DNA from: the human T2T-CHM13v2.0 reference genome, Homo sapiens
Length of the DNA: 64,000 nucleotides
Assembly: GCF_009914755.1 (NCBI RefSeq)
Contig: NC_060944.1
Reading direction: 5' to 3' (one strand)
Shown here piece by piece: positions 3,881-49,466 of the stretch. The notes beneath the pieces were generated by a model that worked only from the letters and a program-made list of their open reading frames with translations, was not told the DNA's origin and made no database searches. A program made the translations under genes and the position numbers. Each line of letters starts with the position of its first letter. The first letter of the stretch is position 1.

Positions 3881-4052
3881 CAAAAAGGCATGTTTCCCAG
3901 GAGACTACAGAGGAGAATCGGCAGGTGGTCACAATTGCAGGGCTGTCTCAGGCTGAGCAGAGAGTACGGTGGAGGGGCATGGGCCTGCTGTTGGCGGTGA
4001 GGGCCTTGGAAATGGCTTCCTGGAGGAGATGGCAATTATCCAGGTAGACAAG

Positions 4053-4053
<1 letters not shown>

Positions 4054-4093
<40 letters not shown>
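4054..4093. repeat. (TG)20 microsatellite
   Basis: Perfect dinucleotide run. Confidence 0.98.
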
Positions 4094-4094
<1 letters not shown>

Positions 4095-5913: not shown

Positions 5914-6271
5914 TGGTATGGTTTGGCTGTGTGCCCTCATTCAAATCTCATCTCGAATTGTGATCCCACATGTTGAGGGAGGGAGGTGATTGGATCACGG
6001 GGGGCGGTTCCCCCATGCTGTTCTTATGATAATGAGTGAGTTCTCACGAGACCTGGTGGTTTTATTTGGGGCTCTTCCCCACTTTACTTTCTCTTCTCTC
6101 TCTCCTGCCACCTTGTGAAGAAGAGCATGTTTGCTTCCCCTTTCGCCATGATTGTAAGTTTCCCGAGGCCTCCCCAGCCCTACAGACTGTGAATCAATTA
6201 AACCTCTTTTGTTTATAAATTACCCAGTCTCAGGGAAGTTCTTGAAAGCAGTGTGAAAACAGGCTAATACA
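5914..6271 (+). mobile_element. THE1/MST (MaLR) solo LTR
   Basis: TG(G)TATGGTTTGGCTGTGT...AATTACCCAGTCTCAGG...CTAATACA; near 5-bp TSD GTATG/GTATA. Confidence 0.9.
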
Positions 6272-6360
6272 GTATATGAGGATATTAGCTCTGTTTGTTA
6301 TCTATGTTACCTTTTTTTCAGTTTGTCCTTTGGTTTTTGATATCTTTTTCCATGCAAAAA

Positions 6361-6362
<2 letters not shown>

Positions 6363-6392
<30 letters not shown>
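6363..6392. repeat. A30 homopolymer
   Basis: Seen directly. Confidence 0.97.
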
Positions 6393-6394
<2 letters not shown>

Positions 6395-24880: not shown

Positions 24881-27494
24881 TTTAAAACCCAAACTGGCTT
24901 TGGGCATGCAGAATGCTTGGTTATTTCTGAAGTATAAAAATAACTCCCCCTCTGTCCCATCAGCACGCGTGTTGCAGGGAGTCTGACGTTGCTCGCTAAG
25001 TCTCTTTGGTCGTTTCATACTAATGCCCTTTGCTCCCCTGATTATCTCTCTGAGGTTGGGGCCGGGGGATGGGGGTGTGCTAGGCCTCCTGGATGTCTGT
25101 CTGCTGCCAAAACATCCTCTCCTGTCTCTGTCTCATTGGTGCATTTTGATGAACCTGTATTGCCTGGTCACTGCGCGCTAACCACCAAATTATGAAACAT
25201 TTGTGCTGCAAGGGAGCTGAGAGATCCTTAAACTCAATGAACCATTAGGCATAAGACACACACACACACATACACACGTGAATACACACAAACACACAAA
25301 CAGCTTGGCTGCTCTGGGTGAAGCATGTGTGTGTTTGGGGGAAATTTCCTTCCCCACCCGTGGTCGTCCATTTGCCCATGAGCAGCTTCCGAGGCAGGTC
25401 CGTGGACCCCAACGCTGTGTAACACCGTGTGAAAAACACAAAGGCTTGCAGCCCTCTCACTGCAGACGTGGGAACACGACTCTGTTTAAAACCCTTCAAA
25501 GCCCGCCTTCTTGCCGTGTGATGCTGCCTGGGCCAGCAGGGCAGGTCACCACGCTGTCTCTTCAAAGCAGCTCGCTCATGCCCACAGCGCTGGGCACAAG
25601 GGCAGCCACGAGCTGTTTGATTTCTGCGTCCCCAGCAGATGGCTTGGTGCACAGGGGCAGGGCTCGTCTGTCCCTCTCACTGCTGCGTCCCAGGCTATGT
25701 CTCCACCATGTAACTTCAGACAAGTTCCTCAGCGTCTCTGTGTCCTGGTTCCCTCATTTGTAACATCAGGATATTGATAAGGATCATAGTAATAGGGATG
25801 TCCTTATGGGGCCTCATGAAAATGAAGAGTTCTCTGTGATGTGCCTGGAACCACAGAGGGCAGCAAGTGGGAGCCACAGAAAGTCATCTCTTTATCATAG
25901 TTGTCATTGGTAACTATGACGGTTATCAAGGGCAGGGGTCTCCCACCTTCTGCATCCAGGCCTTGTCATTCCTTATAAAATTTTCTCCTTTCAAGGACTT
26001 TCAATGCCCTGAAAACGGAATGCTCCTCCCTGCTCCCCATCAGCTGCTGCAGAGCCCTGAACCCCTTGAACTTGCCTTGCTTAGTTCTTTCAGGGGCTGC
26101 CTTGGATGCCACCTCACTTCCCTCTTCTTGGCTCTGTGGCTGTCAGAGGGGCTGGGCACTGGGTTACTTCATCAGTTCCTGGGTGTTGATCGGCAGGAAA
26201 CAGTGGTTTCCTGTTCATATCCTGCCTGAGCCTGGGCCGGGTGGAGGTGTCCTGCATGGAGTCTTGTGAAATCGCGTGGACTGCAACACCCAGCAGCGCG
26301 GTGAGTCCACCCTGAAATCCACAGTGACCCACGCGGCATGTGCTGGGAATTGAACGCTTGGGGAAAGAGCTGGGCTCCAGCGGATCAGCCCCGACCAAGT
26401 CGTTCCCACAGCTCAGGACCGGACGCTACAAGCCCACTTTGTAGCAGTTTGGCGGACGGCAAACTTTTGCAACACAGTGCAAAAACCATTTAACACCTTT
26501 AAGGGAATTGGAAATGGGTTTTTCATGTGTGGTGGTGCTGAAAATTGAGAATAATGACAGAATTATTAAAAACAGCCTTCTCGGCCTTAGACTCTTAATT
26601 GCCTCTGGTCTGTAAAACTGACAAATAAGCACTGTAGAAGCCACAGATGAAATATGTCGTCTTGGGAGCCCTGGAGAATTGTCTCTGAATTCTTTTGTTT
26701 ATGGATTGTAGAAACTGCTTTGGGGGTAGTTGGATGTAGAAGCAGGACAGAGTGGGGAGCTGGGAGCAGGAGGCCTGGGTTTGTCTCCTGAGTCTGTTTC
26801 CACTGGGGCCTGAGGCTCCCGTGTGAGGGAACATGAATGGGCCAGGCACATGGGCCCTGTGGGGTGACAGAGCTGTGGGCTCCATGGTGGCTCTGTGGGC
26901 AGCTAGCTTGGGGATGGCTGAGATAAAGACAAGTAGTTTTCCTTCCTGCAGGACTTCTCAGAGCCTTTAGTGTGGTTATAATGATAGAAAACAGTATTAA
27001 GTCCATACCCTGAACCAGAAACAATGCTAAAAGCTTTGCACTTGGCCTTTTTTTTTCTTTTTCTTTTATCAACATGTGTGAGGACGGAAGCTTAGGCTTA
27101 CAGATATGGACTCATTGAGAGTGAGTGGACGTGTCTGATCTTTAACCCAGTTCTGTCTGACCAAAAAGCCTGTGCTCTAACCACTGTGCACCCCTGCCTG
27201 TCTGTCCTGTTGAGAGAACTGTAGGGAAAGCCTTGAGATTATGTATCCAGTGCTCCCCTCCTCCTGATTGGAAGATGGCAGCTCAGAAGGTTAGGGTGCC
27301 TTCTCCTGTCCTCCGAGTGGTTAGATGCACGTGTCCTCTTCTGTCCTCTGCTCTTCCCACATCCCTCTCTCTCTGGTGCTCTGGTGGAGCCCCTGGGATC
27401 AGGGGTCACAGGAGCACCTGGGCCATTTGCATGGTTGTTGGTAAAGGGTGTTCCCCCACCCCCCATTAAGGTGCCTGCCATCAAAGTGCCTTAT

Positions 27495-27660
27495 TGCTTG
27501 AGTTCCAATCTCGGCTTCACAACTCTGTAGCTGTGTGACTTTGCACAATGTACTGAGCCTCTCTGTGCCTGAACATCCTTGTTTGTAGATAGTAAAGATA
27601 ATTGTCCCTTACTCCTAGGTTTCACATTGAGTGTTTAGCAAGTTAACGTTTGTAACGTGT
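27495..27660 (+). mobile_element. MIR
   Basis: TAGCTGTGTGACTTTGCACAA...CCTCTCTGTGCCT. Confidence 0.7.
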
Positions 27661-29489
27661 GAAGTCATAAGATGCAGGACTGGATGACTGCCCTACCCAC
27701 AAGAGGCCTAGGATCTTCCCAAGTTGCACTACTTATGGGACAGGTCTGCCAAGCAGCCCTTGTGAAGATAAAGGTGGTGATGAGTTCCTCCCACAAAACA
27801 AGAGCCTCAGAGAGACTGGAAAATAACCCCCGGTGCCTTTTATCAACTGGCCAGCAGATGGCAGAAGCAAGCCAGGAACAGAGCTTGTGTGCGGCGGCTG
27901 TGGCAGCTACCTTTGAAAATCCCGTGGTGTTTGGTGGTCGTATTAAGAGATCTCTGGTGTAGGAGCATCCTTCATTCTAAGCAGGATTCTGAACAAACTC
28001 AGAACTGGCTTTGTGGCTGGTACCGAGGACCCAGGGGTCACGGCTGCTCCCAGTGGGTGCTGATGCCCATTTGTTTGTGCAAGTTGGTCCCCTGTAGGGA
28101 GGACAGATGGTCTGTCTCGGACTTTCTGGCCTGTGCACCAAGGCCCAGGGATGGAAGTGGGGCAGCATGTCCCCATCATTAAATAGGGCGTTCTTGATAA
28201 TAATCCCATAAGGCCTAATGTGATGGGTGTGGTCAATCATTCATTCATTCTGTGAGGATTCAGTGAGCAGCTACTCCATGCCTCTAGGCTCTGAGGACGC
28301 AGCATGAGAAACACACGGAAGGCCCACGATGACCAGGGAGCTCGCCTTCCAGGGAGAGAGGAGAAAAATAAATGGTAGGGAGTTAAACACGACAAAGTAG
28401 AAAAGGGCCAGCTGCAAGAATGAAATTAAATAGGAGGCTGGTGGCAGGGGGGCAGGGAAGCCTGAAGCACCTGACTGCCCAGAACAAGCCGCACCTGTGA
28501 GGAGCTGGGAAGGGCACTCCAGGCAGAGGGAGCACCAGAGCAAACCCTGGGAGGGGGATGAGCCTCTTGTTGAAGAACTAGAAGGAGGCCAATGTGGCTG
28601 AGCAGAACACATGAGGCGGAAGGAGGAAGTGAGGGGCCCTGGGCCTGGCCACCAACCGGCAGATCAGGGGTGAGGACTCCACTTGGGAGAGTGTGAATGG
28701 CCCAGTGTGAATGACAAAGCAGTTTCATGCAGCTCAGCCTGTCTGGCTAAGTGCGCAGCCCTGAGGATTGGGCTCTGAGCGTTGCAGCCCTTCTGAGTCT
28801 GTGGGCCCCTCTCCCAGGAGGATCAGGTTGCCCAGGGCAGCTGGAAATGTCCTTAAGTGACTCCTTGCTGCTGCTGCCGCTGCGTCTTGCTGACATCATT
28901 TCCCCGCAACAAGCGCTGGTCTCCTGGGGCGGCTGCCCCCTCTCATCTGCACATCTAGCTCCCCTGCCAGGCCTGTGCTGTTTTCCGGGGCCTCACAGAG
29001 AAGCTCAGGCAGGTGGAGCCTCAGCAACAGGCGCCATCCTCCCCTTCAGCCTGTCGCGGCTCCTCCCTGGGGCATGCTTGAAAGCCCAGACATGTTCTTC
29101 ACATCTGAGAAAGCAGTTAAACTGAAATTCCTGGCAGACTCAGGTTCAAATCCTTATTAGGCTGTTAAGTGAGAGGGGATTTCATTTCCTTGCAGCCGCC
29201 CTGGGTCCTGCCACTGAGCAGCTGTTGGTAGGCTCTGCTGTGAGGTCTCCTCTTCCGGCTTTCCCACTTCCCAAGGTAACCTGGTGTGGGGAGGAAGCCG
29301 GGGGCCTCTGGTGAATGGGAACCTGTGCAAAGAAGGAGCCGAGGGCAGGGAGAGGTGGGATAAGACCCAGCGTGGGGGCCTGAAAGTGAGGCCAGCAGAG
29401 AGTCATTGAGAGGCCCTCGGAGAATACGTTCTGGGGACGCAGTCAGGGAACACCTGTTTCCTGCTGTGTGACTCTCACAACCCAGCTGT

Positions 29490-30258
29490 GGACACACACG
29501 TATGTACATATATGCACACACAGGAACACATATGCACACACAGGAACACATGCACACATGGACAGACATATACACACGATGAATACACATACAGACACAC
29601 ATTCATATATACACACATACCTATGTATACACATGTACACACATACACTCACATGCACATGCACATATAGACCTACAGATACATAAATGTACATCCTTAT
29701 AGATGCGTACATATACAGTACACATGCATGTACTCACAAATACTTATGCCCACATCTACATATATGTATAATACATATATACACATATAGATATATACAT
29801 ATATACTCACATGTCTATGTATAAACACACACCTATATGCACATGCCTATACATATATGCACATACATGCCCACATACACCTATGTAAACATATACACAC
29901 ATCTATATTTAAATATGCTCATGCATGCATATATACACACATATATACACATTTATGCATGTGCATTCATGTACATATACACACATGCACTGACATCGAC
30001 ACATGCATGACACAATGATATAGATATACACACATATATACATGCATGAACACATCTATATGCATACATACACATATGTGGATATAGAAAAATAGCAGAT
30101 ATACACATACATGCACATATCTGTATGCACACATATATACATACAGATAAACACATGTACATTCATCTAGATTTCCACATTTACAAGTGCATATTGGTAC
30201 ACATATGCATACATATGTGTATGTATGAATCTTTTCTCCCTCTATATCACACACATAC
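29490..30258. repeat. Degenerate (CA/TA)n alternating purine-pyrimidine tract, ~770 bp
   Basis: Continuous CACATATA/CATACA-type low-complexity sequence. Confidence 0.92.
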
Positions 30259-30309
30259 CTTTTGCTGAGGGCTTAGTATTTACTAGGTGCCAGACTCTGC
30301 TCTCTTAAT

Positions 30310-30720
30310 ATAAGGTCGCCCCAAAACAGACCCTGAGCTGAGGATTCGGGTGCAAGCGGCTAACATGGACGGTGATCCAGCAGCACCGTGAGGAAGTGGG
30401 GCTGAAACCTGGAAGGGAGCAAGGCCGGGGATTAGGGTGACCACAGACAAGGCCATCACTGAGGACCTTGGGGTTCAATTTCTCCAGTGGGGGTGTCTAA
30501 GCCACTATGTTGCGTCACGTGTCAGAATTGCCCTCTGGAGGACTGGAAAACTGGGTGTTGACTGCCACTTCCTGCTCCTGGCCATGAACTCCTGGTGCTT
30601 CTAGTTTGCCCAGCATAGGCCATGTGCTCCTGGGGCCAGCGAGGGTCCACAGGCAGAGGCTGGGGACCTGTGCTGCAGGTGATCGCAGGTGGGCCCTGGG
30701 CCACCACACGCTCCACACAG
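30310..30720. mobile_element. ERVL LTR remnant (LTR16/LTR33-like)
   Basis: CAGACCCTGAGCTGAGGATTCGGGTGCAAG...GGTGATCC...GGAAGTGGGG motif string. Confidence 0.5.
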
Positions 30721-33700
30721 GTGCTGCCTCATGGGTCTTTCACAACAACCCCCGTTTGACAAGGAAGAATCTGGGGCTTGGGGAGGTCTATAGATTTGAG
30801 GGGTGTTATGGGCGAGGCTCATAGCAGAACCAGGTCAAGAATCAAGGTTGTGTGATTCTAGCAGGTAAGTCCTGACAATGACTGGCAAGTGTGAGCCATG
30901 CAGGGGCAGGACAGGCCTCATGAGTGGTGACAGGAGGTGGTTCAGGGTTGTTTTGCACAGCCAGGCATTCTTTGAAGGGCAGCTGCAGTGAAGGGCCTGG
31001 CTGCACAGCCAGCCTGCCTGGGTCCAGATCCCAGACTCACCATGTCCTGAGGGAGCTTGGGGGAACTGCCTGTTCCCTCTGGGCTTAGTTTCTCGTCAAC
31101 ACTAAGAAGACTCAGTTGAGTCATGTTCATGATGGAGTGCTTGCAACACCACCAGAGAGGAAGGGATTGTGAATGAGGCCGTCCTGGGGAAGCGCAGGTG
31201 TGTTGGGGTGGGCGGGTAACCAGGTATTGCGACAGGGGCACAAGGTGGCACTCAGCCTCCTTGTGTTTGTAGCAGACTTTTGAACACTAGACTTTCTGGT
31301 GGCACCTGTAGCACCCTTAAAAAGTGAATGCTGCTGCCCAAATTAAATCTGAGCAGACTGAACTGAACGTCCCAGCATAACCTCAACGTCTCTGGGGCCC
31401 CATCTGCCCTGCTCTTAGCATCCCACTAAGAGAAGCAGCAGACACTCAAAGCAATTGGAAAAATGACCTGAGTTCATCCAAACCCTTTAAGGAGAAACCT
31501 CTCTATGACTTTCCCTACGATTCTTTCACCCCGTATTTCTCCCCTCCCATGGTCTCACTCCAGAGCTTTTCCAGAGCCCTTTTCTTTCCCAGAGGCTCCT
31601 TGGAGCCAGCCCTCACGGCTCTGGCCTTGTTTTCTGCTCCACGTTTTAGCATGAGGCAGGCATGCTATACGGCAAACATGACATTTTCTTTAGTGGGTAG
31701 GGGAAGAGGAGGGCTGAACCTCTAGCGCCCGAATGCATTTGTCCCTGTCACACACAGTCATTGTCCAATTACCTTTTGGGAGGGAAAACCCAGTACTGAT
31801 CACTCCGCCTACTCCAGTTTTTCCTGATCTGAATGATCTGCCTTAACAATGTGTTAACATTTTACCCAAGTTCACTCAGAATAAGAAAGTGCGTAGAGGT
31901 GCCCACTAGAGGGTGGGCGCACAGCAGTGGGCATCTCGGCTCTCTGCCCGTGGGGATCCTGCCAGGTTGTTCAGAGCAGCTCCTCAGTGTCACTCTCCTC
32001 CCCACCCTCCCTTTCCTTGGGGTCTAGCCGTTTCTAGCTCCAGTGTTGCCCCTCCCAAGCTGGATGTAACCTAGCTTCTGTCTTTTACCTGTTACCTCAT
32101 TTGTGCAGTTAACATTTTATGCACGTCCCTTACAGTGTAGAAGGAAAACATAATTCTAATCTGACTCCATTCAGTGATGTTAAATACTGCATGTGAACAT
32201 CCCCATCCAGAAGTTCATCCAATGTAGACTCATCAAAAAGCAGGAGTCCTAAATGTTTGCATTGTGCAAGCATCCTTAGCACATTGCTATATAGGTGTTT
32301 AAGAGTGTCTTAAGAGATATTTGGAAAATTGGTTGGGGATTGTTTTTGTTGGCCTGGGAATGTATTATTATTTTTTCCCAGTTCACATAAAGGGGTGAAG
32401 CCCTGATGTCTGGAAATTTGCTCTCCAAAGTGTTTCCAGGAATTGACAATATTTGGATAATGAGGGGTGTCTGTACTTTCCTTGACCTAAACTGCTGGTA
32501 GAGGGGGATATTTTTGTATGATTGGGCAAGGTCAAACACAGAATCAAATCAGGAAGAACAGGGTCTGACATGATGAATCCCTGCCTCGCCTTGCCATTGA
32601 CAAGAGACAGAATAAATGCCCCCAAAGAACCCTGCACCATGAACGCTTGATGGCAATCCTGTCTCAGGGCTTTGCTGCTCGCTGTCAGGCAGCAGGTACA
32701 CTACCCAGGGCCGTGGGGAAGGCGTCTTGCAGCCACACTGCAGCAGGAGGCTGGTCATATCTACGGGCTCCACCAAGCCAGGATGCAGAGCTCGGCCCGT
32801 CTCATGGCACAGGCTCGGGCTGCTCGGAGCTTATAATGAATTAGAGCCACAGCTGATTATTTTCAAGGCTGGCGCTCACGCTGGGTGCCTGAGAAGACGA
32901 TGAATCTGCAGTGCCGAAGTGCTGCCTGGCCTCTCAGGAACCAGCTGCAGCTGGGATTCTCTGCAGCCTTCCCCGCAGCAAGCTGGGGTAGCCATGAGCC
33001 CTGCCTGTCCAACGTGGGGTCAGGCGGGCATGCCTGCTGTGTCTGGCAGCCTTGACACCCCCAGATTCTGCTGGAAGATGCTCGTGGCCTGAAAGCTCAT
33101 TTTGTAGTCGCTCTACCCTGGGATGCAGCTTCTGCACTGGCAGGATTAACGCAAACAGAATCTGCTTGGCTCATTCCTCGCCGGGCCTCAACAGGCCTGC
33201 AACGCCACTGTCTGCCAGGGAGAGCCACTCGGTGATACTGTTAATTAAAACCATGACTCTGGGGGCAAGAAAAAATTTTAAAACGCTGAAGTCATCTTCC
33301 CTAATAGAAATCTTATTTTGAAGGTGCTCACGGAGGTCAGGCTGACCAGAAAAACCCACAAGCCATAAATAAGCTCAAATAGTTTTATTTAATTTACTTA
33401 ACTCGGTGCCTGGAGTCCTCATGGGGAGAGGTGCCTGGCATCAACACAGGGTGGGGGTGGCCACCCTCATCTCTAGCCCCTGGGTCCCAGAGCTGAGAGG
33501 AGGGAGAGAACTGAACTTTCTTGGAAGAATGTGGAACTGCTGAGTAGATGCTTTGGAATTTGCTGACCCAGGCATCTGGGAGTACAGCCTGACCGGCCAT
33601 CTCTGCGCCAAGCTATCTATAGTCCAATGGCTATTTTCAATTGGAAATTCATTTTAAAGTGGTGGCAGTGACGGGGGAGTGGCTGTATCTGTAATCCATT

Positions 33701-34349
33701 ATTTCACACAGAGAATTCCCTTCTTTCATTTTTTTCTGGCCAAAGTTGCTGCTTTGAACGTGGGTGGGTCTTGGAGCCCAAGACTGAGCTGGCTGCTTGG
33801 AGAAAAATTGGAGGGATTTGAAAAGGCCCGAGGGAGGGTGTCCTCTGAGTTGGGGGTGGCAGAAAACATCTTAAATGTGCAGGCCCAAGCCTTCTGCAGT
33901 GAAGGGAATAGGACTCTGGCTTCGGCAGACCTAACTCAGTCTCTGGGTTCTTGGGCTAATTTGTGAAATTACCTCTCCCCTCAGGACTGGGAGAGAACGG
34001 CCTTAAATAAGTGCAATTTAATTCCCTTGATTGTGGTCCTCTTTAATGAAAAACCAAAATTTATTCTCTCTCCTGCTAGTTTCCCATTGAAAGTCACAAG
34101 AAATGAGGCTGGGGTGGAGGGCCTGGAGTTGCTATGGAAGCATGATGCCTAGAACCCACTATGGGATGGATGGTCATTGGTGTCACGGACTGTGGTGTAG
34201 ACATTGTCTCCTGTGCCAGGATGTGGCCTGGTCCTGCACCCCTTTGCCTTTGAAGCTGTGCCTGCCTGTGATCTGGGAGTGGCACGAACCCACAGAACCC
34301 AGCCCACCCTGCAGGAAGTGGGAGAGCTCCCCGGGTACTCTGGTGCTGA

Positions 34350-34613
34350 GGAAGCACAGCTTAAAGAGGAAATTTCCTTGAAATCCACACAGACCTCCTT
34401 CCAGAATGTTCTGGAAGGAAGCACAACTTCAAGAGGAAATTTCCCTGAAATGCACACAGACCTCCTTCCAGAATATTCTGGAAGGAAGCACAACTTAAAG
34501 AGGAAATTTCCCTGAAATGCACACAGACCTCTTTCCAGAATGTTCTGGAAGGAAGCACAAGTTAAAGAGGAAATTTCCCTGAAATGCACACAGATCTTCT
34601 TCCAGAATGTTCT
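34350..34613. repeat. 67-bp tandem repeat, ~4 copies
   Basis: Units start at 34350, 34417, 34484, 34551; consensus GGAAGCACAACTTAAAGAGGAAATTTCCCTGAAATGCACACAGACCTCCTTCCAGAATGTTCTGGAA. Confidence 0.97.
34368..34612. promoter_or_regulatory. Candidate composite NF-kB / STAT / HSF1 response array
   Basis: GGAAATTTCC at 34368, 34435, 34502, 34569; TTCN3GAA at 34374 and +67 repeats; TTCnnGAAnnTTCnnGAA at 34399, 34466, 34533 and a 3-pentamer version at 34600. Function is inferred from motifs only. Confidence 0.6.
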
Positions 34614-34829
34614 CTAAATCCTCCTCCAATTCAACTGTCATCACCACAGAACCCACACCCTATGATAAATGGCCAGAGCCCTTACTGTCTTTGTTTTACT
34701 CCAGGCGTCTCAGGCCACTAACAAGGAGGTGGAGGTCTCAAGGCTATTGTCAACTGATTCTGCTGGAGGCCAGACCAAAATGGCTTTCTTCCGTGACAGC
34801 GTCAGTCCAGTTACAAATCTCCCGGTTCC

Positions 34830-35480
34830 ATGATAAAGGATTTGGCTGGGCTATGGCCCTGGTTTCTTGGAGGAAACCTCTAAATCCTTGAAACTTCCCG
34901 AGTGATAGGAGAATCTATGTTATTCATGGTGGGCCTTTCCAACCATACCTGAGTTTATGCTTATGAAATTACCAGGATGGAAGCTGACCACACCAGAAAG
35001 GTCAGCCAGGTAATTGGAGGCTTGGGGCTTTGACCAACATGACGTCAGTCCTTCAGTGAGTGGAGGAGGGCTGGAGATTGAGTTTAATTGCATGGCCAGT
35101 GAGTTAATCAATCATGCCTATGTAACGAAACTCCAATAAAAATTCTGGACATGGGCTCAGGTGAGCTCCCAATTAGTGAACACATCAAGGTGCCTACAGG
35201 TGATATGTCCCGATCCACAGGGTGATGCCATGGAACCTTCCAGGCCTGGCCCTATGCATCTCTTCACTGGGCTGGGCTGTATTTCCACCATTTGATAATA
35301 ACACTGTAATCTTATCACTGCAGCAGTTTCCTGAGTTCTGCCAGTCGTTCTGGCAAATTATGAAACCTGAGGGGGTTGTGGGAAATGCCAAATTTTTGGC
35401 CAGTTGGTCAGAAGTGCCAGTTCTGGGGAGCCTGGAGCTCCTAGCTGGAAATTCTTGTGGACAGTGTACCTGGCCTCTGA
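34830..35480 (+). mobile_element. MER21-family LTR
   Basis: CCTCTAAATCCTTGAAACTTCCCGAGTGATAGGAG...GGGGCTGGAGATTGAGTT...ATCAATCATGCCTATGTAACGAAACTCCAATAAAA. Confidence 0.82.
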
Positions 35481-35599
35481 TGTCTGAGCCAGTTCTGGGT
35501 GTTGTGTGTTGGGATGGCACTGCAGTCCCTAAAGCAAGTTCTGGGGAATGGTAGGAAAGCATCCCTGCATCTATATTTCCATTTGGTCCCGGTCTAAAG

Positions 35600-35760
35600 C
35601 AGCTGGTCCTCAGAATTGTCTAGGGGGCTTTTAGAAAGAAGAGCCTTCTGGAACCCTTCCTGAACGATTCTGATCCCATAGTCCCGCAATGGGCCCTGGA
35701 GTCTGTATTTTTGAAAAGCTTTCCTAAGTAGTACTGAGGCAGAATCATATTTGAGACTAA
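35600..35760. mobile_element. MER5-type fragment
   Basis: GATTCTGATCC...GGGCCCTGGAGTCTGTATTTTTGAAAAGCT. Confidence 0.55.
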
Positions 35761-36279
35761 CTTTCCAGTGCAGCCAGGCATACCTCCCAAAAAGAGAAAA
35801 TCTGTTTGAAAGAAGGGAAAATGCAGAAAACTGGGGAGGCCATTCCCCAGTGTTCTAACAAGTCAGGGAACAAAGGGACGGCAGATAGAAAGTTCCATGC
35901 CGGGAGGTCAGTGCTGCAGCCTGCGTCCTTACGCTGAGGTCAGTCTACGAAAAGGCATATTTGGTGACCCTGCATCCCTTTCTGGGTGTTAAGCTCTGGA
36001 GACACTTGCGAGGCCTTCTTCCTTCTCCATATGTCCCCCCTTGGACCTTTCAGATGTCCTTATGGTCCTGACATCAGTATCCTATGATGGGATGCACATG
36101 CTCGACCTCGGGGACCAGCTGGAAGCCCTAGCTGCTGCTGGCAGGGGCCAGGACCCTCAGCACTGAGGGTCTGGGTAGATGGAACTGCACACCTTGCATC
36201 TGGGGCGAGGAAGCATGTCCTAAGAACTGAGTGGCGCACGAGGAATTCACGTGACAGTTTCTCAAGCTGGTGGCCTTCT

Positions 36280-36900
36280 CCCTGTCTCCTAAAACTGCCC
36301 TGAGCTGCCTCTGTCTCCCACCGGGGTGACAGCCACATCTCCTCTCTGATCTCCCTGCTTCTCATCTTGCCCCTATGCAGCCTGTTCTCCACACAGGGCG
36401 ATCCTTTAACAAGTCAACCATCCATGTCTTTCCCTTGCTTAAAATCCTCCGAGGCTCCTTTGCACTGTGAAAATTAGAGCAAGAGCCCTGGGGATCTGTC
36501 CTTGCCTGTTTCCTCCCCCTCACTTGGTCCTGTCATGCATCAAATCATAGCCACATGGTTTTTGCTTTCTGTTTTTCAAAGAATTTCAAATTCTCTTCTC
36601 CCACAGGGCCTTTGCACAAGCTTTTCCCACAGCCTGCAACACCTGCCCTTCTTCCCCACACTTGGCTTGTTCCCAGAAATTCATCATCCTGTCTTAAATG
36701 TCACACTCTTCAGAGAGGCCTTCTTTAGCCCAGATACATAGGTAGGTTGACCCTATTGTTGTCTGTGACATTATCTTCTTGATGTCTTTGGACTTAATCA
36801 CACTTTTAAATATATATTTGTTTTTCCTGTCTCTTCCACGAGGCTGTTGAATGCTGCATGGACCTGTGCCCGGCACAGAGAATGTGCTGGTTTCAGTAGA
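36280..36900. mobile_element. L2 remnant
   Basis: GCTTAAAATCCTCC, CAGGGCCTTTGCAC, AAATGTCAC...TCAGAGAGGCCTTC motifs. Confidence 0.6.
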
Positions 36901-36963
36901 GTAATTAATACAAGCAGCAGCAGTGAATAACCCAGACAACGTCAGTGGCTTATCTTGGAAAGG

Positions 36964-37276
<313 letters not shown>

Positions 37277-37880
37277 TGATCACATGACTCAGCCAGAGCA
37301 GGTGGGCATGGACCTCTGCTCTCCCCACTCCACCTAAAGAACCTTCTCCACCTCCTGGTCTCCTTACCTGGAATATGTGGCCTATGAGGTTTGCCAAAGA
37401 GGAGAAAATGGAGACACACTAGCTGTTATCAGCCTGGCAGCCACAGGCTCACTTCTGTTCTTGGCCCATTTGCCTGACCAGTCCTGTGGCTCCCACCACC
37501 TGCAGGAGAGTGGGGAACAGAGGAGGCAGGAAAGACACTAGGAAGAGTGGGGAGGGAGGAGAACTGCACAGCTGGAGAGGGTAGGAGGGATGCTGAGTGG
37601 GTGCTGCTGGGAGGAGGGTATGTACTACTGGGAGGAGGGACGCTGGGTGGGCACTGCCAGGAGGAGGGATGCTGGGTGGGCATTTCTGGGAGGAGGGGGG
37701 GAGGGGGAAGAGCCACACAGCCCGAGGTCCGTGGCAGGAGGAGATGACAAGCAGGGAGAACACCAACGGAATAAACTCTGCAGTTTCCTTCAGATCATCC
37801 CTGCATAGGTGTTTCTCGAAACTCATGTTCAGTGAGAACAGCAGACATAGACTCAGGACAAACCCTCCGTCTCCTTTCAG

Positions 37881-38050
37881 GTTAGGTTGGCCCATGGGCT
37901 GGAGCGTCTGCGTCTTGGTCGGCCCGGCAGTGTACATGTCAAGCAGCGCGCAAAGACTCCACAGCCATTCGTAGGCACTGCTGGCCTCATGCTCCAGACA
38001 GCCCTGGGACAATGGGCCACCAAGGGAAATCAATGATTGCGTGGGCGCAG
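37881..38050 (+). ncRNA. Candidate internal exon of a non-coding transcript
   Basis: Pyrimidine tract CTCCGTCTCCTTTCAG| and CAG|GTGACC donor; CpG-retaining non-repeat sequence; no recognisable protein. Confidence 0.3.
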
Positions 38051-38964
38051 GTGACCTCCAGCCTGCTTCAGGGCCACCCTTGTTCCCCATGCCAACTCCC
38101 TCCTTCCTATGGGCTCCCAAGAAATGGGTGGCAGAGACCAGCCTGGTGATTTACCTCCTGCCTTTCCGTGACTTCCTCCCAGTCCTGTGCATCTCATGTT
38201 TAATTATGAGGCTGTGGAAGGTGGTGATATTAATTATAGGGCTGAGGTTGTGTTACTTGGAGAAAGTCAGTGCACATGTCATTTGATTTTCCTCAAGAAG
38301 GAAAACTGTATTTTTTCCGATCTCAAAAATAATTCCAGGGAAATAAATGTGTACAATCACACTTTGGGGTTTAAAACTAACGAGTTTCAGTTTTAAAACA
38401 TGTTAAAAACCTTTCTATTTGGAGAAAGCTGGAAGAATCCACTTTGGGGATCTGGCGGTTCTCAGGAGCTGTATTACCTCGGGATGGTCTCACTGGTTGG
38501 TAGCAGCTTTTGTATGAGGAGGGGCATGGGGTCCCGACTTAGGCAGAGAAGGCTTTGCTGAAGAGGTGCAAAGCCCAGCTTAGGGCTGGGTTTTCTACAG
38601 ACCAGGAACAAAAGCATTGCTTGGCAAGATTTCTTCTCTGCTCAGAGAAAACACGCAGATTCCAAAGAGTGAGATGGAGAGAATTTGACATGTCTTGGTT
38701 TGAAAATAAGTCAAAAGAAGTCTAATATTAACAATAGCAATAATAATAACAACCATTAATTGTGCCTGCGTTAGGTACCAGGCCCTATTCTAAGTGTTGT
38801 GAGTGCCCTCTGTCATTTAATCTCCACGGAGTCCTGAAGGTGCTTCCCAGGTTTGTCCCCATCACACAGATGAGGCAATCGTTCTGTTAAGACTGTCCTT
38901 GGGTCATTATGTCAGCAATGAAATCGGTGCTGCCATTACTAAACCCTTACTGTGTGCTGGCATT

Positions 38965-39052
38965 TGTGTATGCATGCATGTGTGTGCGTGCACACGTGTG
39001 TGTTTGCGTGTACATGTGCATGTGTGTGTTGTGTGCCTGTGTGTGCACATGT
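38965..39052. repeat. Degenerate (TG)n tract
   Basis: Seen directly. Confidence 0.85.
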
Positions 39053-39479
39053 AGAAAGAAAGTGATGTGTGGGAATGGAGAATTCCAACCCAGGAGGAGA
39101 CTGTGCCTGGGGCTGCCACGAGAAGTGGTGACACTTCGAGAAACGGGTTCCAAATGCACGTTGCCTTCCAGTTCTCTGTGTGACCTTGGGCAAGTCACTT
39201 CAGCTCCCTGAGCTTTGTTTTTAAAAATATTTTTTAAATGTATAAAACCATGGACCATTACATATGAAGAGAAATGTGTGTGCAAACATTCAGTTAATAA
39301 TCACAAGGTGGAGGAGTGCCTGCTCAGACCCAGAGCTGACACAGGGAACTCTCCCAGAAGGCTGCAGGGCTTCCCTCCCAACCCTCCAACGGCCCACTTG
39401 CTGAGCCCGTGCTTATCTGTTCAGTGGAAATGCCATGTGCCACGTTCCTCAGAAGTAAAGCCACTAGGTAAGTGTGACA

Positions 39480-39690
39480 CTCTGTGCCCAGCTTGGTGCA
39501 AAGCCCCTTGTGTGTGCTATCTTATTGACCTCCCAAATAGCATGGTAAGGTCAGTACTGTCACTTCCCCCACTTTGAAGATGAGGAGAGCACAAATTCTA
39601 GATGGAAATGGAGGTCACGCAGTGGAAATAGGATCCAGACAGATTAATCCAATCTCAAGCCTGAATTCTTCCATTCCACGCTACGCTTGA
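39480..39690 (-). mobile_element. MIR
   Basis: CCCCACTTTGAAGATGAGGAGAGC core-like sequence. Confidence 0.55.
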
Positions 39691-41589
39691 AGCTCAATCT
39701 CTCTTCCTGGTTGATTCTCCCCACTTCCCCACCCCCAGATATATCCCATCGCTGCTTGGTGGACAGTAGCCATGACTGGGTTTTGGTAAAGGTTGCTGAA
39801 TAATCAGGCTGCTGGTTAGTTTTTACATTTCACCTTTCCCAGTGAAATGGGGCCCCATGAAAAAGGCAGCTCAAGTTGTAAATTACTCAAAGGAAGGACA
39901 GAAAGGTCTTCTGTTTGCACCTACCCTAAGGATTTGGGGTAGACACTGGGAATTTACTAATTATGAATTCCAGTGCTTTCCTTGCTGAAAGAGAGGCGTG
40001 GAATCAACGCTGAGTGAAGGCATCAAGTTTAAGCTGCTAATTACTTCCTGATCATGCAGAATAAAAGCTACGTCCCTTGAAATACACCAGGCAGCTAAAC
40101 ATAATCTTTGCGTTTCCGTAGTGTTGGTTAAGGAATCCAGATGTTACTGCAATAACCACTCCATAAACAAAAGGAACACCCAGCTGTGAGAACTGGCTTC
40201 TCAGCATTCGTCCCAGCAGAGGCTCTTCCGGGGCCAGCCCTGGAAGAACCCATCAGGGTTCTGATGGTTGCCCTGTTTCAGCACAGCCCTTATTGGCAGG
40301 CAGACGGCTACGGGCACAGCCACAGGCTGAAGGTGAGTCCAGCACACAACTTTCTGACAGTGAACAGGAGTAAACATGGGACCCACCCGAAACCTTTGTC
40401 TGTTGACTTCTTAGCAAATGGAGGCAGCTCTAGGCTCTGGAGAGTTCGGGTATAGGAGACCATGACTTGAGCAGACTGATATAAGTGGAATGCAAACATA
40501 TTTAGATGGCACAACTTAATTTAGATTTATCAGTGCTAATATAGAAAAAGCTAGTATTTATTGGGGCTTATTAGATTTTTAGTCTGAATCCTCACAACTT
40601 ACGAGGGGGTTCGTTTTACAGACTATGATCTTGCATGATTTCCCCAAAGATGCTCATTAAGTATATGGTGAAAGTAGAATTTGAATACAGAAGACCTGGT
40701 TCTGCTACTTTCTGTGTTTCTATTTGGTTCAAACCAGCCTTTCTTCTTTCAAAACAACTTCAGTGCAATTCATGGTTTTGGAAAATAAACTTGATTTTGA
40801 GATTCAGACAATAAGTGCATTTTTAATGTTTATTCTTTTATCTTGAAAAACTGATATATTTATGAAATGATATGTGCTCACTCAGTGTCAACACTTCAAA
40901 CAACACAGACAGTACAATGACAAATTGGAGATCAGCTCTAATCTCGGCCCCCAATTTAATGCATTGCTGAATATTCTTCTGAACATAGTCCATCCCACAC
41001 TGTCCCATGACACAAGACGCTCCAAGGGGCTGAAGATAGAGGGACTTCTGCAGTCAAGAGAGCTGGGAAACTCTTGGACAGTCACAATGTGCATTTGGGT
41101 ATTAAAGGCTCTGCAAAGTTCTGCACCAAATAAACCCTTGGATTGGCTTGATCCAATGCCATGTTTCCAAAACCTACTTGCCCGTGGGACACCTTAGTCC
41201 ATAACACAGGTTGGCATTTCTTCTAGAGAGTGTGCTGTGAAAAACACTGGTCTCACAGCACCGTGCATTCATCCAGCAGGTATTTACCAAGCAGGGACTT
41301 TGGGCCAGGTCCGTGCTAGGCTCTGCAGGTGGACCAGCCAGCCCTGACCTCCATGGTGTCTCTTCTCATGGGAGAGGCTGCACAGCAGTCATTGAGAAAA
41401 CGAAGAAACACACAGGTACTTTCAGATGCTGATAATGACTACCATGTGCTAAAAGAGCTCCAGGTGTTGTCTGTTTTGAGACAATCTTCTCGACAATGAG
41501 ATAGAATGAACCATGCAAACTTTGGGGGCTACGATGGTTTTAGGAAAGAGCTAGAGTGAAAAATCCTTTGACATATATACATACAAATA

Positions 41590-44090
41590 AAGATACATGT
41601 GTATAATTTTATGTAATTGACATCACATTATATGCTGGCACCTGCCTTTTTTGCTTAATGAAAATGTCAAAGGTAATATTACCAATCAATCAATATATTT
41701 CACCATCGTGTTTAATTTCTGCAGAGCACTTATTCAAGCACATACTGCATTTTTCTTAGTCACTCACTGGTGGGAATAGAAAGTTTTCTCAGGCATGCAT
41801 TTTTCCCACTTCTGAAATGATCTCCTTAGAATAAATTCCCCAAATTGTATTGCTGGGTTCAAAGGCATGAACATTTTACATTTTTATACAATAATGTCAA
41901 ACTACCTTCCGGAAATGATGCTCACTTTACTTTCCCTCCAAGACTGTGTGAAAATGCCCATTTTCCTAAATGCTTACTATGACTGGTTTCCAACTACATT
42001 TTAATTCTTGTTCAATCTGATAGGCAAAAAATGATATTTAATTTTTATTTGATTGATAATGACCTTGAACGTGCCCATTAGCCTTTTGCATGTATTCTTT
42101 TATGAAACATCTGTTCCTATCCTTCGTCAATGTTCCTCTTCATATGTTAACTTTTCTTATTGATTTGTTAGAGCACTTTGTATATTGTGAATATTAGCTT
42201 TTGTGATCAGAATTATGGAATTGTTGTTGTCTTTAGTTTTGCTTATCAAGTTTAAAGCCATTCAGAGATGTTGTAAATGTGTATGTTGTTAAATTTATGT
42301 CTTATTTTGTGTTTTCTGATGCTCATATGTTTAGAATGGTCAAGCAATCCCAACTTATGATTACATAAATATTCTCCCATATTTGCTCTTAGCATTTTTT
42401 TTCTTTTCATGTAACCCTTTGTTCTTTCAGGAATTTACTTTGCGGTAAGAAATGGGCTGGCTTCCAGTTTTATGTTTCCCAAATGGTGATTCAGCTGTTC
42501 CATTTCCATATTCTCCCTTATTAGAAATGACCACTATATTATGTTCTAAAATATCTGCGTACTTGTGTCCCTTCCTATAATCTCAGTTCATCTCTTTGAG
42601 CTATCTTTTGATTCCTTTTTCAAACCACACTGCTTTACTGAACTGTCATCATCTTATACATTTTTAATACTCAGCAAGACAAGTTTCTCAATGCCACTCT
42701 TTTTCAGAGTTTTTCTGGTGGTTGTAAGATGTTTATTCTTCTGGATAAACTTTAGAATCACTCTTTTTGTCCAAGGTAAAATATATCCCACATTGAGATC
42801 ATACTGAATATACAGACTAATTCAGGAAAAAATGTATGTCTTTATTGCATTGAGTCTTCTTATCCAATAAAAAAGATATGAATTTCCATGTATTGAAATC
42901 TTCACTGAGACTTATTTTTGGCTTTTCACATGTCCTGCAAATGTATTGTTAAATTTATTTTTAGGTATTTTAGGGGAAATGATTTTCTAAAGTTTGTATT
43001 TTCTAGCTTGTTATAATTTACATATGAGATAGTCATTGTTGTATATTATTTATAACTGATCATATTACTGTATTTGTATTGTTTTAATAGTTTTTCTATT
43101 ATTTTGGGTTTTCCTGGAATACAACCTTATTATCTACAAATTATGATTGTTTTGCCTTTTCCAATGTTCATAACTGTTTTTATATTCTTGTCTGATTGCT
43201 TTGTTCAGCACTTCTAGAATAAAGTCATGCAATACTAATGATAAAGGGTACTCTGAACTTGTGACTCTCATAGGATGCGGACAGTATTTTTACAAGAAAA
43301 TTTGATGATAATTTTTGGATTGGAATGTGCATTAAAAAAATTCTACGGTGCTCACACCTGCAATCCCAGCACCTTGGGAAGACAAGGTGGGTGGATCGCT
43401 TGAGCCCAGGAGTTTGAGACCAGCCTGGGTAACATACCAAAATCCTGTCTCTACAAAAAACAAACAAACAAAACCCAAACGACAACAAAAAAACCCAACA
43501 ATTAGCCAGGCATGGTGGCACACACCTGTAGTCGCAGCTACTCAGGAGGCTGAGGTGGGAAGATCACTTGAGCCCTGGAGGTGGAGGTTGCAGTGAGCTG
43601 AGATGGCATGGCGCCACAGCACTTTAGTCTGAGCGACTGAGTGAGAGCTTGTCTCTAAAAAAAAAAAAAAAAATCAAAAACCAACCAAACGAACAAAATC
43701 TTATAAGAAGGAGTTATTGATAATTTCAAGTATCAGAAATGGATGTTAAATCTTATCAAATGTCTTTATGACTTATAAGAAATGATCATATACTTCTTTA
43801 TCCTTTGTCCTATTAACACGTTGAGAGTATTTTTTAAAGTTTCCCAAACCATATAGCTCCTGGATTTTGCAAATGAGTTCCTCATCATCATGGTGTGTTA
43901 TTTACCAGCGCTTTTCTCAAGCTTTTTGGGTGAACTTTCTCTAATTACCTTTTCTGCGGGGAGTCTGTGTCAGGCCCTGGCATTCAGGTTATGCTGACTG
44001 TGGAGAAACCATTCAGTGACTTTTTGTCTTTCTCAATGTACTGGAATTGTTTCCATAGTACAGAAATAATCAGTTCCTTGAAGATTTGAG
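41590..44090 (-). mobile_element. Highly diverged L1M remnant interrupted by an AluJ
   Basis: T-rich antisense L1 motifs (ATAAACTTTAGAATCA, TGAGTCTTCTTATCCA, AATGGATGTTAAATCTTATCAAATG, TCAGTTCCTTGAAGATTTG). Confidence 0.65.
43347..43673 (+). mobile_element. AluJ
   Basis: GGATCGCTTGAGCCCAGGAGTTTGAGACCAGCCTGGG (J-type) and an A tail. Confidence 0.9.
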
Positions 44091-48275: not shown

Positions 48276-49466
48276 GTGGCTGATCTGTGTTAATTACTGT
48301 TAGTATCATTTAAGGCTGGAGGAGTGCACCTTAGTTTTCTCTTGTTGGGACAAGGCCAGTTGGTTGTGTGTGCCCCTTGGTTTAACCCTAGGGCAGAACT
48401 TCTTTGGTTTGGGGTGCAGGCCTCAGGGGTGCAGGGCTGAGAGGCAGAGGCTGAGTCAAGCCCAGGGAGAAGGCTGGTGTGTTGCCCTGGAGCACCAGTT
48501 TCCTCCACAGTCAGCAATGTCAGCCTTTGAAGACTATTAAGACAAATGCAGTTACATTACAGAAAGCAATAAAAATGCTTGTGAATTTTTAAGGTAAGAT
48601 ACCTAGATTTTAGCCAGGTCCTGGGCTGGGGCCCCCTCCTTGCAGACGTTCCCTTCCTTTGCTGCCTCTCCCATGGCCCCTGCACAAGGCTGCAGGATGG
48701 GTGGGGCTCAGGCCTTGCAGCAGTGAATGGATTGATGAAGCTGCCCTTCAAGGCACTTCTCTTTTCCTTACACAAATGCTTTTGCAACTCCTGTGCCCTG
48801 AGGCTCTGTCTTAAACTGGTGTAGGCCCCAGTGGCAGGGCTGACACCTGACAGCTAAGCCTGGGAGGAAATGCTTTTGATTGTTCCATGCCAGAATACTC
48901 CAACCTTCACCTCCCTGGCCTTTTGTGCTGGAACAAGGCCAATCAGTTCTGTCTGCTCCTTCCAGTGGTGATTTGGTTTAATCAAACAATTGCATGTCTG
49001 GGAGAGTTCCCTGTCCGCCTTGATTATACATGCATCACCCTTGCCCCGCCTTGCACATACTCCCCAAGTCACATTCATCCAATTTCATTTCATTGCAGAT
49101 AAACCACACACAGAAATAGACAATGCAATCACCACAGCCCGTGTCTAGGAGAACATCTTGTCCAAGCGCAGGTGCAATTTTGCCTCCACTTGGCCGTGTC
49201 CTTGCTACCACCTGTGTGGTCTTGGGCCCTGCGTGGGGGAGCAAGAGGGCCTGGCCTCCTTCCTGTCTCATCTCACTGTTCTTCCACACACAGCAGGTAG
49301 CGCCCTCCCAGCCACCCTCCCCATCACCGTCCTCTGATTTGTGAGGTGCCTGACAGGGAGCCAGGGAAGGGCTCACTCCGCAAGCACAGTCTCCCAAAGT
49401 GGCAGCGTCTCAGCACTTTGCAGAGCTGGCATGATCGTTTCCGAAATGTCCACCCAGGCTCTAGGG

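What the first reader, a model, noticed from the sequence alone, without database searches (positions are those of the whole stretch)
34350..34613. 67-bp tandem array packing NF-kB, STAT and heat-shock elements into every unit
Seen: each unit has the palindrome GGAAATTTCC (reading GGGAAATTTCC on the minus strand in units 2-4), an overlapping TTCC(C/T)TGAA, and TTCcaGAAt(g/a)TTCtgGAA. Unit 4 stops after three pentamers, giving 15 nGAAn pentamers in total. A PU.1-like AAAGAGGAA precedes the kB site in 3 units. Substitutions between units all fall in spacers or flanks, though there are too few to be statistically meaningful. Established: these match the RelA/p50 kB consensus, the STAT GAS consensus TTCN3GAA, and the HSF1 inverted nGAAn element. 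Inference: a copy-number-tunable enhancer integrating fever/heat shock, inflammatory and cytokine signals, with likely kB/STAT competition because those two sites overlap. It lies ~200 bp upstream of a MER21 LTR.
Basis: partly seen in the sequence, partly recalled or inferred. Interest (0 to 1): 0.8.

Follow-up and report, generated by a model that had tools for sequence, protein, structure and literature searches.

The report
Tandem heat-shock-element array bound by HSF1
A four-copy 67-base repeat inside a human non-coding RNA gene carries a near-ideal docking site for the heat-shock factor HSF1 in every copy, and published maps place an HSF1 peak at this position in stressed cells, so it is probably a real heat-responsive control element, while its proposed NF-kB and STAT inputs remain untested.

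Summary
Window 34349-34613 is a 67-bp x 4.0 tandem array, 93% matches, no indels. It is single-copy in the genome and lies 209 bp outside an old ~700-bp LTR.

Units 1-3 each carry a perfect four-pentamer heat shock element; unit 4 has three pentamers. Every unit also has GGAAATTTCC overlapped by TTCN3GAA.

Published data support the heat-shock arm. HSF1 ChIP-seq peaks map onto the array in 4 of 4 datasets (MCF7 and K562, heat and arsenite), and three of the four are centred within 45 bp of the array centre (PMC10654513 supplements). The host lncRNA LINC02910 (C20orf197) is in the heat-up PRO-seq lists of both lines, with no HSF1 peak at its promoter. Nascent-transcription elements widen or appear around the array on heat shock.

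The NF-kB arm is only biochemically plausible. The strict p50/RelA consensus is not met, but the decamer equals the 'kB-33' RelA-homodimer site. The STAT motif is no commoner than chance.

Copy-number tuning was not testable; 5-10% divergence between units suggests an old array.

Verdict: an HSF1-bound heat-responsive element, a new member of a known kind. The three-signal integrator is unproven.

The parts
34349..34613 (.). 67-bp x 4.0 tandem array, unique in the genome
   Evidence: TRF. Unit alignment. Own-genome BLAST finds only itself.
34399..34416 (.). HSE 1: perfect four-pentamer element TTCcaGAAtgTTCtgGAA, the core of the 24-nt palindrome 34396-34419 that spans the junction of units 1 and 2
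34466..34483 (.). HSE 2: perfect four-pentamer element with central AT, core of the palindrome 34463-34486
34533..34550 (.). HSE 3: perfect four-pentamer element
34600..34612 (.). HSE 4: three pentamers only; the array ends here
34368..34377 (.). GGAAATTTCC ('kB-33' decamer) of unit 1. The same decamer lies at 34435-34444, 34502-34511 and 34569-34578. Each is overlapped by TTCN3GAA at 34374, 34441, 34508 and 34575.
   Evidence: Sequence.. Identity with kB-33. Strict consensus not met.
34038..34956 (.). Published HSF1 ChIP-seq peak, MCF7 heat shock, mapped from hg19 chr20:58638800-58639718. The other three peaks map to 34077-34913 (MCF7 arsenite), 34043-35430 (K562 heat) and 34115-34936 (K562 arsenite).
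   Evidence: PMC10654513 supplement file 7. The offset hg19 = window + 58604762 comes from the C20orf197 promoter interval and was checked on the CDH26 promoter interval: 29 bp off over 97 kb.
32998..33728 (.). Distal transcribed regulatory element present without stress in MCF7 (K562: 33078-33578). On heat shock it becomes 32678-34638 in MCF7, now covering the array. In K562 it becomes 32828-33858, and a new element appears at 34998-36438.
   Evidence: PMC10654513 supplement file 11, mapped with the same offset
34822..35524 (+). Old solo LTR-like repeat (copies begin TGTTGTA and end TTGCA), 65-74% identical to other copies. It is not part of the array. The K562 heat-only transcribed element overlaps it.
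26217..43242 (+). Host gene LINC02910 (old name C20orf197). The array lies in the intron between exons 29196-29275 and 40122-40332, 8.1 kb downstream of the transcription start.
   Evidence: Hub annotation. The heat-up promoter lists of MCF7 and K562 include C20orf197.

Best explanation
The array is a single-locus tandem quadruplication of a 67-bp segment. It multiplied a near-ideal heat shock element, giving three perfect four-pentamer HSEs and one three-pentamer HSE spaced 67 bp apart.

Supported by published data, placed by coordinate mapping: in stressed human cells an HSF1 peak covers the array.

Inferred: up to four HSF1 trimers load onto it. The array then acts as the heat-inducible module of a larger intronic regulatory region, window ~32.7-36.4 kb, whose upstream part is already transcribed without stress. 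On heat shock, nascent transcription spreads or starts around the array, and the host lncRNA LINC02910 is up-regulated even though its own promoter has no HSF1 peak.

Not shown: that the array causes this induction.

Potential only: the GGAAATTTCC site in each unit can bind RelA homodimers in vitro, but nothing here shows NF-kB or STAT input in cells.
For: - The anatomy is confirmed.
- The array and its 22-nt palindrome belong to no repeat family.
- 3 of the genome's 667 perfect TTC-first four-pentamer HSEs lie in these 265 bp.
- HSF1 ChIP-seq peaks occur in 4 of 4 sheets (MCF7 heat, MCF7 arsenite, K562 heat, K562 arsenite). Mapped peak centres are 34497, 34495, 34737 and 34526 against an array centre of 34481. 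About 18,000 peaks of roughly 500 bp cover about 0.4% of the genome (my arithmetic).
- Among rows sampled by numeric prefix, the array peak is the widest in 3 of 4 sheets: 918 bp of 10 rows, 836 of 9, 1387 of 14, and 821 as second of 6. This indirectly suggests a strong signal.
- C20orf197 is in the heat-up promoter lists of both MCF7 and K562.
- No chr20 HSF1 peak lies at its promoter in any sheet.
- Transcribed elements extend over the array (MCF7) or appear just downstream of it (K562) only on heat shock.
- HSF1Base lists C20orf197 as a direct, 'shared' HSF1 target from an independent study, Mendillo 2012. That study could not be opened, so this is gene-level only.
- None of the 9 variable columns falls in the fixed motif letters.
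Against: - The source paper stresses that most HSF1 binding does not activate transcription, so binding alone is weak evidence of function.
- Arsenite gives an HSF1 peak here, yet C20orf197 is absent from both arsenite-up lists.
- The heat-up call for the lncRNA could come from heat-induced read-through from CDH26, which lies upstream on the same strand, or from the upstream constitutive element. Neither was tested.
- In U-2 OS cells C20orf197 sits at the array floor and does not change with heat or TNF.
- RefSeq lists no functional element at the array (hub table).
- Only peak intervals were available, with no heights or summits.
- The coordinate mapping is by offset, not by alignment to hg19.
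- The substitution test is post hoc and non-significant for the HSE alone (P = 0.19).
Confidence: 0.6

Rival explanations
1. Bound but idle. HSF1 occupies the array simply because it holds very high-affinity sites, and the binding has no regulatory output. The heat-up signal of LINC02910 then comes from the constitutive element upstream, from read-through out of CDH26, or from a general heat effect. The array itself is a neutral old minisatellite.
For: - The source paper reports that most HSF1 peaks lie outside functional elements and do not activate transcription.
- There is an arsenite peak without arsenite induction.
- C20orf197 shows no expression or response in U-2 OS.
- No RefSeq functional element is listed at the array.
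- 2288 genes are heat-up in MCF7, so being on that list is not rare.
Against: - Heat-up in two unrelated cell lines, with no HSF1 peak on chr20 closer than the array.
- Heat-specific extension or appearance of transcribed elements right at the array.
- Motif letters are spared by all 9 substitutions (weak).
Confidence: 0.25
2. One reading: a three-input enhancer in which HSF1, NF-kB (RelA) and STAT or BCL6 all act on each unit, with kB/STAT competition at the overlapping sites and output scaled by copy number.
For: - The HSF1 arm is supported as above.
- GGAAATTTCC is exactly kB-33, the site used in RelA-homodimer-DNA structures, and a commercial p65 gel-shift probe is three copies of it.
- By my arithmetic from the counts 667 and 4793, chance pairing of a perfect four-pentamer HSE with this decamer within 40 bp is expected about 0.08 times per genome.
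- TTCN3GAA overlaps it in all four units.
Against: - The strict p50/RelA consensus is not met.
- The GAS match is at chance frequency.
- HSE, GAS, the kB half-site, ETS and NFAT motifs all share the word GGAA/TTCC, which occurs 4 times per unit. Their co-occurrence is therefore not independent.
- TNF did not change C20orf197 or CDH26 in U-2 OS.
- No RelA or STAT occupancy data could be reached.
- Units have diverged by 5-10%, which argues against rapid copy-number change.
Confidence: 0.1
3. A neutral minisatellite with chance motif matches and no factor binding at all.
For: - Before the literature check this was the default. The motifs were multiplied by duplication, so 'every unit' is one event.
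- The array lies in an intron and no element is annotated there.
Against: HSF1 peaks in 4 of 4 published datasets map over the array.
Confidence: 0.03

Closest known systems
Distal HSF1-bound heat shock elements (HSF1 enhancers / heat-activated distal transcribed elements)
   Same: - Inverted nGAAn pentamers.
- Stress-induced HSF1 occupancy.
- Heat-dependent nascent transcription nearby.
- A heat-up linked gene.
   Different: The HSEs were multiplied by a tandem duplication into four evenly spaced copies (67 bp apart) in otherwise unique DNA. Causality for the gene response is not shown.
Satellite III repeats, the HSF1 targets of nuclear stress bodies
   Same: Tandemly repeated, GGAA-rich DNA that HSF1 binds under stress and that is then transcribed. 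I saw only the search listing and abstract start of PMC8535310; the rest is recalled.
   Different: By recollection, satellite III is a pericentromeric array of short GGAAT-type direct repeats spanning very long stretches. This locus is a 265-bp euchromatic single-copy array with classical inverted-pentamer HSEs.
Minisatellites with a factor site in every unit, such as MNS16A at TERT (GATA1 sites) and VNTRs with embedded enhancers
   Same: Each repeat unit brings one more binding site, so site number scales with copy number. I saw only the abstract starts of PMC5438627 and PMC3762855.
   Different: Those are known to be polymorphic. Polymorphism here is untested, and the unit divergence suggests stability.
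kB-33 site (5'-GGAAATTTCC-3') of RelA homodimer-DNA structures, and multimerised response-element probes
   Same: Exact decamer identity. The commercial p65 probe is three tandem copies, so the array looks like a natural multimerised reporter.
   Different: In-vitro affinity only. It does not fit GGGRNWYYCC, and in-vivo RelA binding is unknown.

Membership tests
Heat shock element / HSF1 target site | At least three contiguous inverted nGAAn pentamers | tested here: met
   Three sites with four perfect pentamers and one with three
Heat shock element / HSF1 target site | Stress-induced HSF1 occupancy in cells | tested here: met
   Published peak intervals in 4 of 4 datasets map over the array. 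No signal heights were seen, and mapping is by offset.
Heat shock element / HSF1 target site | HSF1-dependent, heat-induced transcription of a linked gene | tested here: inconclusive
   C20orf197 is heat-up in 2 of 2 lines and transcribed elements change on heat. There are no knock-down or deletion data, it is not arsenite-up, and it does not respond in U-2 OS.
NF-kB (kB) site | Match to the p50/RelA consensus GGGRNWYYCC | tested here: not met
   0 of 7 window matches lie in the array
NF-kB (kB) site | Identity with an experimentally used RelA-homodimer site | tested here: met
   GGAAATTTCC equals kB-33 and is the repeated unit of the p65 gel-shift probe
NF-kB (kB) site | RelA occupancy in stimulated cells | not testable with these tools
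STAT GAS element | TTCN3GAA palindrome | tested here: met
   Four matches, one per unit. The motif is at chance frequency in the window, 26 against 21 expected.
STAT GAS element | STAT occupancy after cytokine treatment | not tested
   No data reached
Minisatellite / VNTR | Head-to-tail copies of a unit of 10 bp or more | tested here: met
   Period 67, 4.0 copies
Minisatellite / VNTR | Copy number varies between people | not testable with these tools
   Only one human assembly is held. Inter-unit divergence of 4.8-10% suggests slow turnover.
LTR family next door (reader: MER21) | The array lies within the family's boundaries or recurs in other copies | tested here: not met
   The array and its upstream flank are unique. 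The family's 5' edge, taken from 11 other copies, maps to ~34822. The family name was not checked.
Satellite III-type HSF1 target | Long pericentromeric arrays of short GGAAT-type direct repeats (definition recalled) | tested here: not met
   A 265-bp single-copy array with a 67-bp unit

The most novel reading that the evidence does not exclude
The array is a natural 'multimerised reporter'. Each unit pairs a perfect HSE with an exact RelA-homodimer site overlapped by a GAS-like site. Heat or proteotoxic stress (HSF1) and inflammatory signals (RelA, perhaps STAT, BCL6 or NFAT) would converge on the same 67-bp module. The number of modules would set the stress response of LINC02910, a lncRNA reported as vitamin-D-induced in monocytes and dendritic cells, and possibly of CDH26.
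Probability: 0.1. Interest if true: 0.7.

Novelty: new member of a known kind. Interest (0 to 1): 0.42.

Why it matters
It gives a clean natural case in which a tandem duplication multiplied a top-affinity HSF1 site, and the result is occupied in two unrelated cell types under two different stresses. This makes several questions testable at one small, unique locus:
- Does HSE number scale enhancer output?
- Does strong distal HSF1 binding drive a lncRNA whose promoter lacks HSF1?
- Do HSF1 and RelA meet on the same module?

The practical weight is modest. HSF1 has tens of thousands of peaks, the host lncRNA has no established function, and the site already sits unremarked in published peak lists.

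Tried and rejected
- **Part of the neighbouring LTR or another repeat family: rejected.** The array, its upstream flank and its 22-nt palindrome are unique. With up to 2 mismatches the palindrome appears only here and at 3 other places, against 3 control matches. The LTR edge lies 209 bp away.
- **Neutral minisatellite with no binding: rejected** after the ChIP-seq intervals.
- **Mendillo 2012 and Vihervaara 2013:** not held, so the independent HSF1 evidence is gene-level only, through HSF1Base.
- **Vydra 2019 supplement:** held no usable text.
- **Janus 2015 (U-2 OS):** its 'regulatory region' of -7.5 to +2.5 kb does not reach the array at +8.1 kb, so its 'no HSF1 binding' entry says nothing about the array.
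- **HSF1Base's CDH26 entry:** it is from mouse spermatocytes and irrelevant here.
- **The second MCF7 heat peak (window ~48655-49020):** it has no three-pentamer HSE, so it could not serve as a mapping check. The CDH26 promoter interval was used instead.
- **Single-strand DNA folding of the array:** z = -5.4. This only restates the palindromes, and no separate structural role is claimed.
- **Literature searches:** the exact HSE and flank strings found 0 papers. C20orf197 with HSF1 and heat shock found none in main text. C20orf197 with 'heat' returned heat-map papers only. HSF1 with minisatellite, VNTR or tandem repeat returned satellite III and general VNTR papers.
- **Not available here:** primate orthologues, other human assemblies, and RELA, STAT or BCL6 ChIP data.

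Full report
**1. The observation**

Tandem Repeats Finder reports one array in the region: 34349-34613, period 67, 4.0 copies, 93% matches, no indels. Aligning the four units gives 56 invariant and 11 variable columns of 67.

Each unit holds two palindromes:
- The decamer GGAAATTTCC.
- A 24-nt palindrome TCCTTCCAGAAT(G/A)TTCTGGAAGGA that spans the unit junction.

The core of the 24-nt palindrome, TTCcaGAAt(g/a)TTCtgGAA, is four perfectly alternating nTTCn/nGAAn pentamers. It lies at 34399-34416, 34466-34483 and 34533-34550. The last unit stops after three pentamers, at 34600-34612.

TTCC(T/C)TGAA overlaps the decamer in all four units. AAAGAGGAA precedes it in units 1, 3 and 4.

**2. Is it more than chance?**

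- Three-pentamer HSE patterns occur 9 times in the 64-kb window, 7 of them in the array, against 0.6-0.8 expected. None of 100 shuffles reached 9.
- The genome holds 667 perfect TTC-first four-pentamer HSEs (reversed-pattern control 477), and three of them sit in these 265 bp.
- GGAAATTTCC occurs 4793 times in the genome (control 3641). By my arithmetic, a chance pairing of the two motifs within 40 bp is expected about 0.08 times per genome.

Two cautions apply:
- The four units are copies of one ancestral segment, so 'in every unit' is one coincidence multiplied.
- HSE, GAS, the kB half-site, ETS and NFAT motifs all share the word GGAA/TTCC, which occurs four times per unit. Their co-occurrence is therefore not independent.

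TTCN3GAA alone is at chance frequency in the window, 26 matches against 21 expected. The strict kB consensus GGGRNWYYCC has no match in the array: 7 in the window against 13 expected.

**3. What it is not**

- The array finds only itself in the genome.
- Its upstream flank 33700-34348 is also unique.
- The 22-nt palindrome with up to two mismatches is found only here and at three other places, with a control of three.
- Downstream, 34830-35448 matches an old interspersed family at 65-74% identity, with 855 first-look candidates of which 40 were scored.
- All-against-all comparison of 11 other copies places the family's 5' edge (TGTTGTA...) at about window 34822 and its 3' edge (...TTGCA) at about 35524.

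I could not check the name MER21.

**4. Age**

- Units differ pairwise by 3-6 substitutions in columns 1-64, a Jukes-Cantor distance of 0.048-0.100.
- All nine variable columns there are private to one unit.
- The array has no CpG.
- With recalled neutral rates of 1-2.2e-9 per site per year, this suggests the duplications are very roughly 15-40 million years old, if no gene conversion occurred. This is inference.
- It argues against a fast-turnover VNTR. Copy-number variation itself could not be tested.

**5. Published experiments that bear on it**

LINC02910 was formerly called C20orf197; both names occur in PMC10289466 (search listings).

*HSF1Base.* The supplements of HSF1Base (PMC6888953) list human C20orf197 as a 'direct' and 'shared' HSF1 target, citing Mendillo et al. 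2012. That paper is not held.

*Ghosh Dastidar et al. 2023.* For this study (Nat Commun, PMC10654513) I read the abstract, passages and supplement tables. It used hg19, 42 C for 60 min or arsenite, and MCF7 and K562 cells. Its HSF1 peak tables contain these chr20 rows:

| Dataset | hg19 interval | Mapped window interval | Mapped centre |
|---|---|---|---|
| MCF7 heat | 58638800-58639718 | 34038-34956 | 34497 |
| MCF7 arsenite | 58638839-58639675 | 34077-34913 | 34495 |
| K562 heat | 58638805-58640192 | 34043-35430 | 34737 |
| K562 arsenite | 58638877-58639698 | 34115-34936 | 34526 |

*Coordinate mapping.*
- The promoter table gives C20orf197 as chr20:58629979-58631979, so the transcription start is 58630979.
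- The hub places that start at window 26217, which gives hg19 = window + 58604762.
- The same offset predicts the CDH26 start to within 29 bp over 97 kb (and the hub table).
- The array therefore maps to hg19 58639111-58639375, with its centre at window 34481. All four peaks cover it, and three of the four centres lie within 45 bp of its centre.

*No closer HSF1 peak.*
- Across numeric prefixes 5860-5865, the only other chr20 HSF1 row in any sheet is an MCF7-heat peak at window ~48655-49020.
- No sheet has a peak at the LINC02910 promoter.

*Peak width.* Among the rows those prefix searches happened to show, the array peak is the widest in three of four sheets and second in the fourth. This is an indirect hint of strong signal.

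*Transcription.*
- C20orf197 is in the heat-up promoter lists of both MCF7 and K562. It is in neither arsenite list.
- The distal transcribed elements, mapped with the same offset:

| Cell line | Without stress | After heat shock |
|---|---|---|
| MCF7 | 32998-33728 | 32678-34638, now covering the array |
| K562 | 33078-33578 | 32828-33858, plus a new element at 34998-36438 just beyond the array |

**6. The kB and STAT arms**

- GGAAATTTCC fails the heterodimer consensus. It is, however, exactly 'kB-33', the A/T-centred site of RelA-homodimer-DNA structures, as named in PMC9991059 (passage).
- A commercial p65 gel-shift probe is three tandem copies of it (PMC3398016, passage). RelA binding is thus biochemically plausible.
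- I could reach no in-vivo RelA, STAT or BCL6 data.
- In U-2 OS cells (PMC4768219, Table S1), C20orf197 and CDH26 sit at the signal floor and do not change with TNF or heat. That study's binding window does not reach the array.

**7. Substitutions against motifs**

- None of the nine variable columns in columns 1-64 falls in the 23 fixed letters of the decamer, the GAS and the HSE. The expectation is 3.2 (hypergeometric P = 0.013).
- With the PU.1-like site added, one falls inside (P = 0.034).
- For the HSE alone, P = 0.19.
- The motif set was chosen after seeing the sequence, so this is suggestive only.

**8. Most likely mechanism**

Supported by published data, placed by coordinate mapping: an HSF1 peak covers the array under heat and arsenite in two cell types. 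Shown in the published tables: the host lncRNA and the surrounding nascent transcripts rise on heat.

Inferred: several HSF1 trimers load on the evenly spaced HSEs. The array serves as the heat-inducible module of a larger intronic regulatory region and drives LINC02910 from 8.1 kb downstream of its start.

The main rival is binding without consequence. The source paper finds that to be the common case, and the arsenite result fits it. Heat-induced read-through from CDH26 could also explain the lncRNA signal.

The three-signal integrator remains possible but has support only for one arm.

**9. Novelty**

The site is present in published peak tables. No paper found by my searches singles it out or notes its tandem structure (supplements of other papers were not searchable).

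It is a new member of a known kind: a distal HSF1-bound HSE element. Its unusual feature is that a tandem duplication multiplied a top-affinity HSE together with a RelA-homodimer site.

Interest is moderate.

Noticed in passing
window ~32998-33728 (MCF7) and 33078-33578 (K562): A distal transcribed regulatory element is called without stress in both MCF7 and K562 (PMC10654513 file 11). The RefSeq functional-element list for this window has nothing there. The stretch 32700-33250 is relatively CpG-rich to the eye.
   Followed up: partly
window ~48655-49020: A second HSF1 ChIP-seq peak appears in the MCF7 heat sheet only (hg19 chr20:58653417-58653782). No three-pentamer HSE lies in it.
   Followed up: partly
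window 6808-6817: A perfect kB consensus GGGAATTTCC lies inside the RefSeq enhancer 6800-7301, in the CDH26 3' region.
   Followed up: no
window 4439-4451 and 4732-4744: These are the only two other three-pentamer HSE matches in the window. They lie within the CDH26 alternative last exon 3766-8261. No HSF1 peak row was seen there.
   Followed up: partly
window 35646-35664: An HSE-like pair TTCtgGAAcccTTCctGAA, with 3-bp rather than 2-bp spacing between the two halves, lies just past the LTR and inside the K562 heat-only transcribed element.
   Followed up: no
window 34822-35524: The old solo LTR next to the array carries an AATAAA at ~35136. The transcribed element that appears in K562 only after heat shock (34998-36438) overlaps it.
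   Followed up: partly
LINC02910 (window 26217-43242): The lncRNA (as C20orf197) is reported as a marker of vitamin D supply in human monocytes (PMC5240112, passage). It is also among the top up-regulated genes in vitamin-D-generated tolerogenic dendritic cells (PMC8564488, Table 2A). It appears in an 11-gene blood signature for subclinical tuberculosis (PMC9876034).
   Followed up: no
window 37583-37697 and 30018-30225: Two other short tandem or direct repeat families: a G-rich family of 36-nt copies (...GGGAGGAGGG...) spaced 21-29 bp apart, four copies, and an AT/CA-rich degenerate array.
   Followed up: no
window 33510-33545: The stretch TTCTTGGAAGAATGTGGAAC, inside the constitutive transcribed element, loosely resembles the array's CCAGAATGTTCTGGAA and contains a TTCN3GAA. 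This is probably chance.
   Followed up: no
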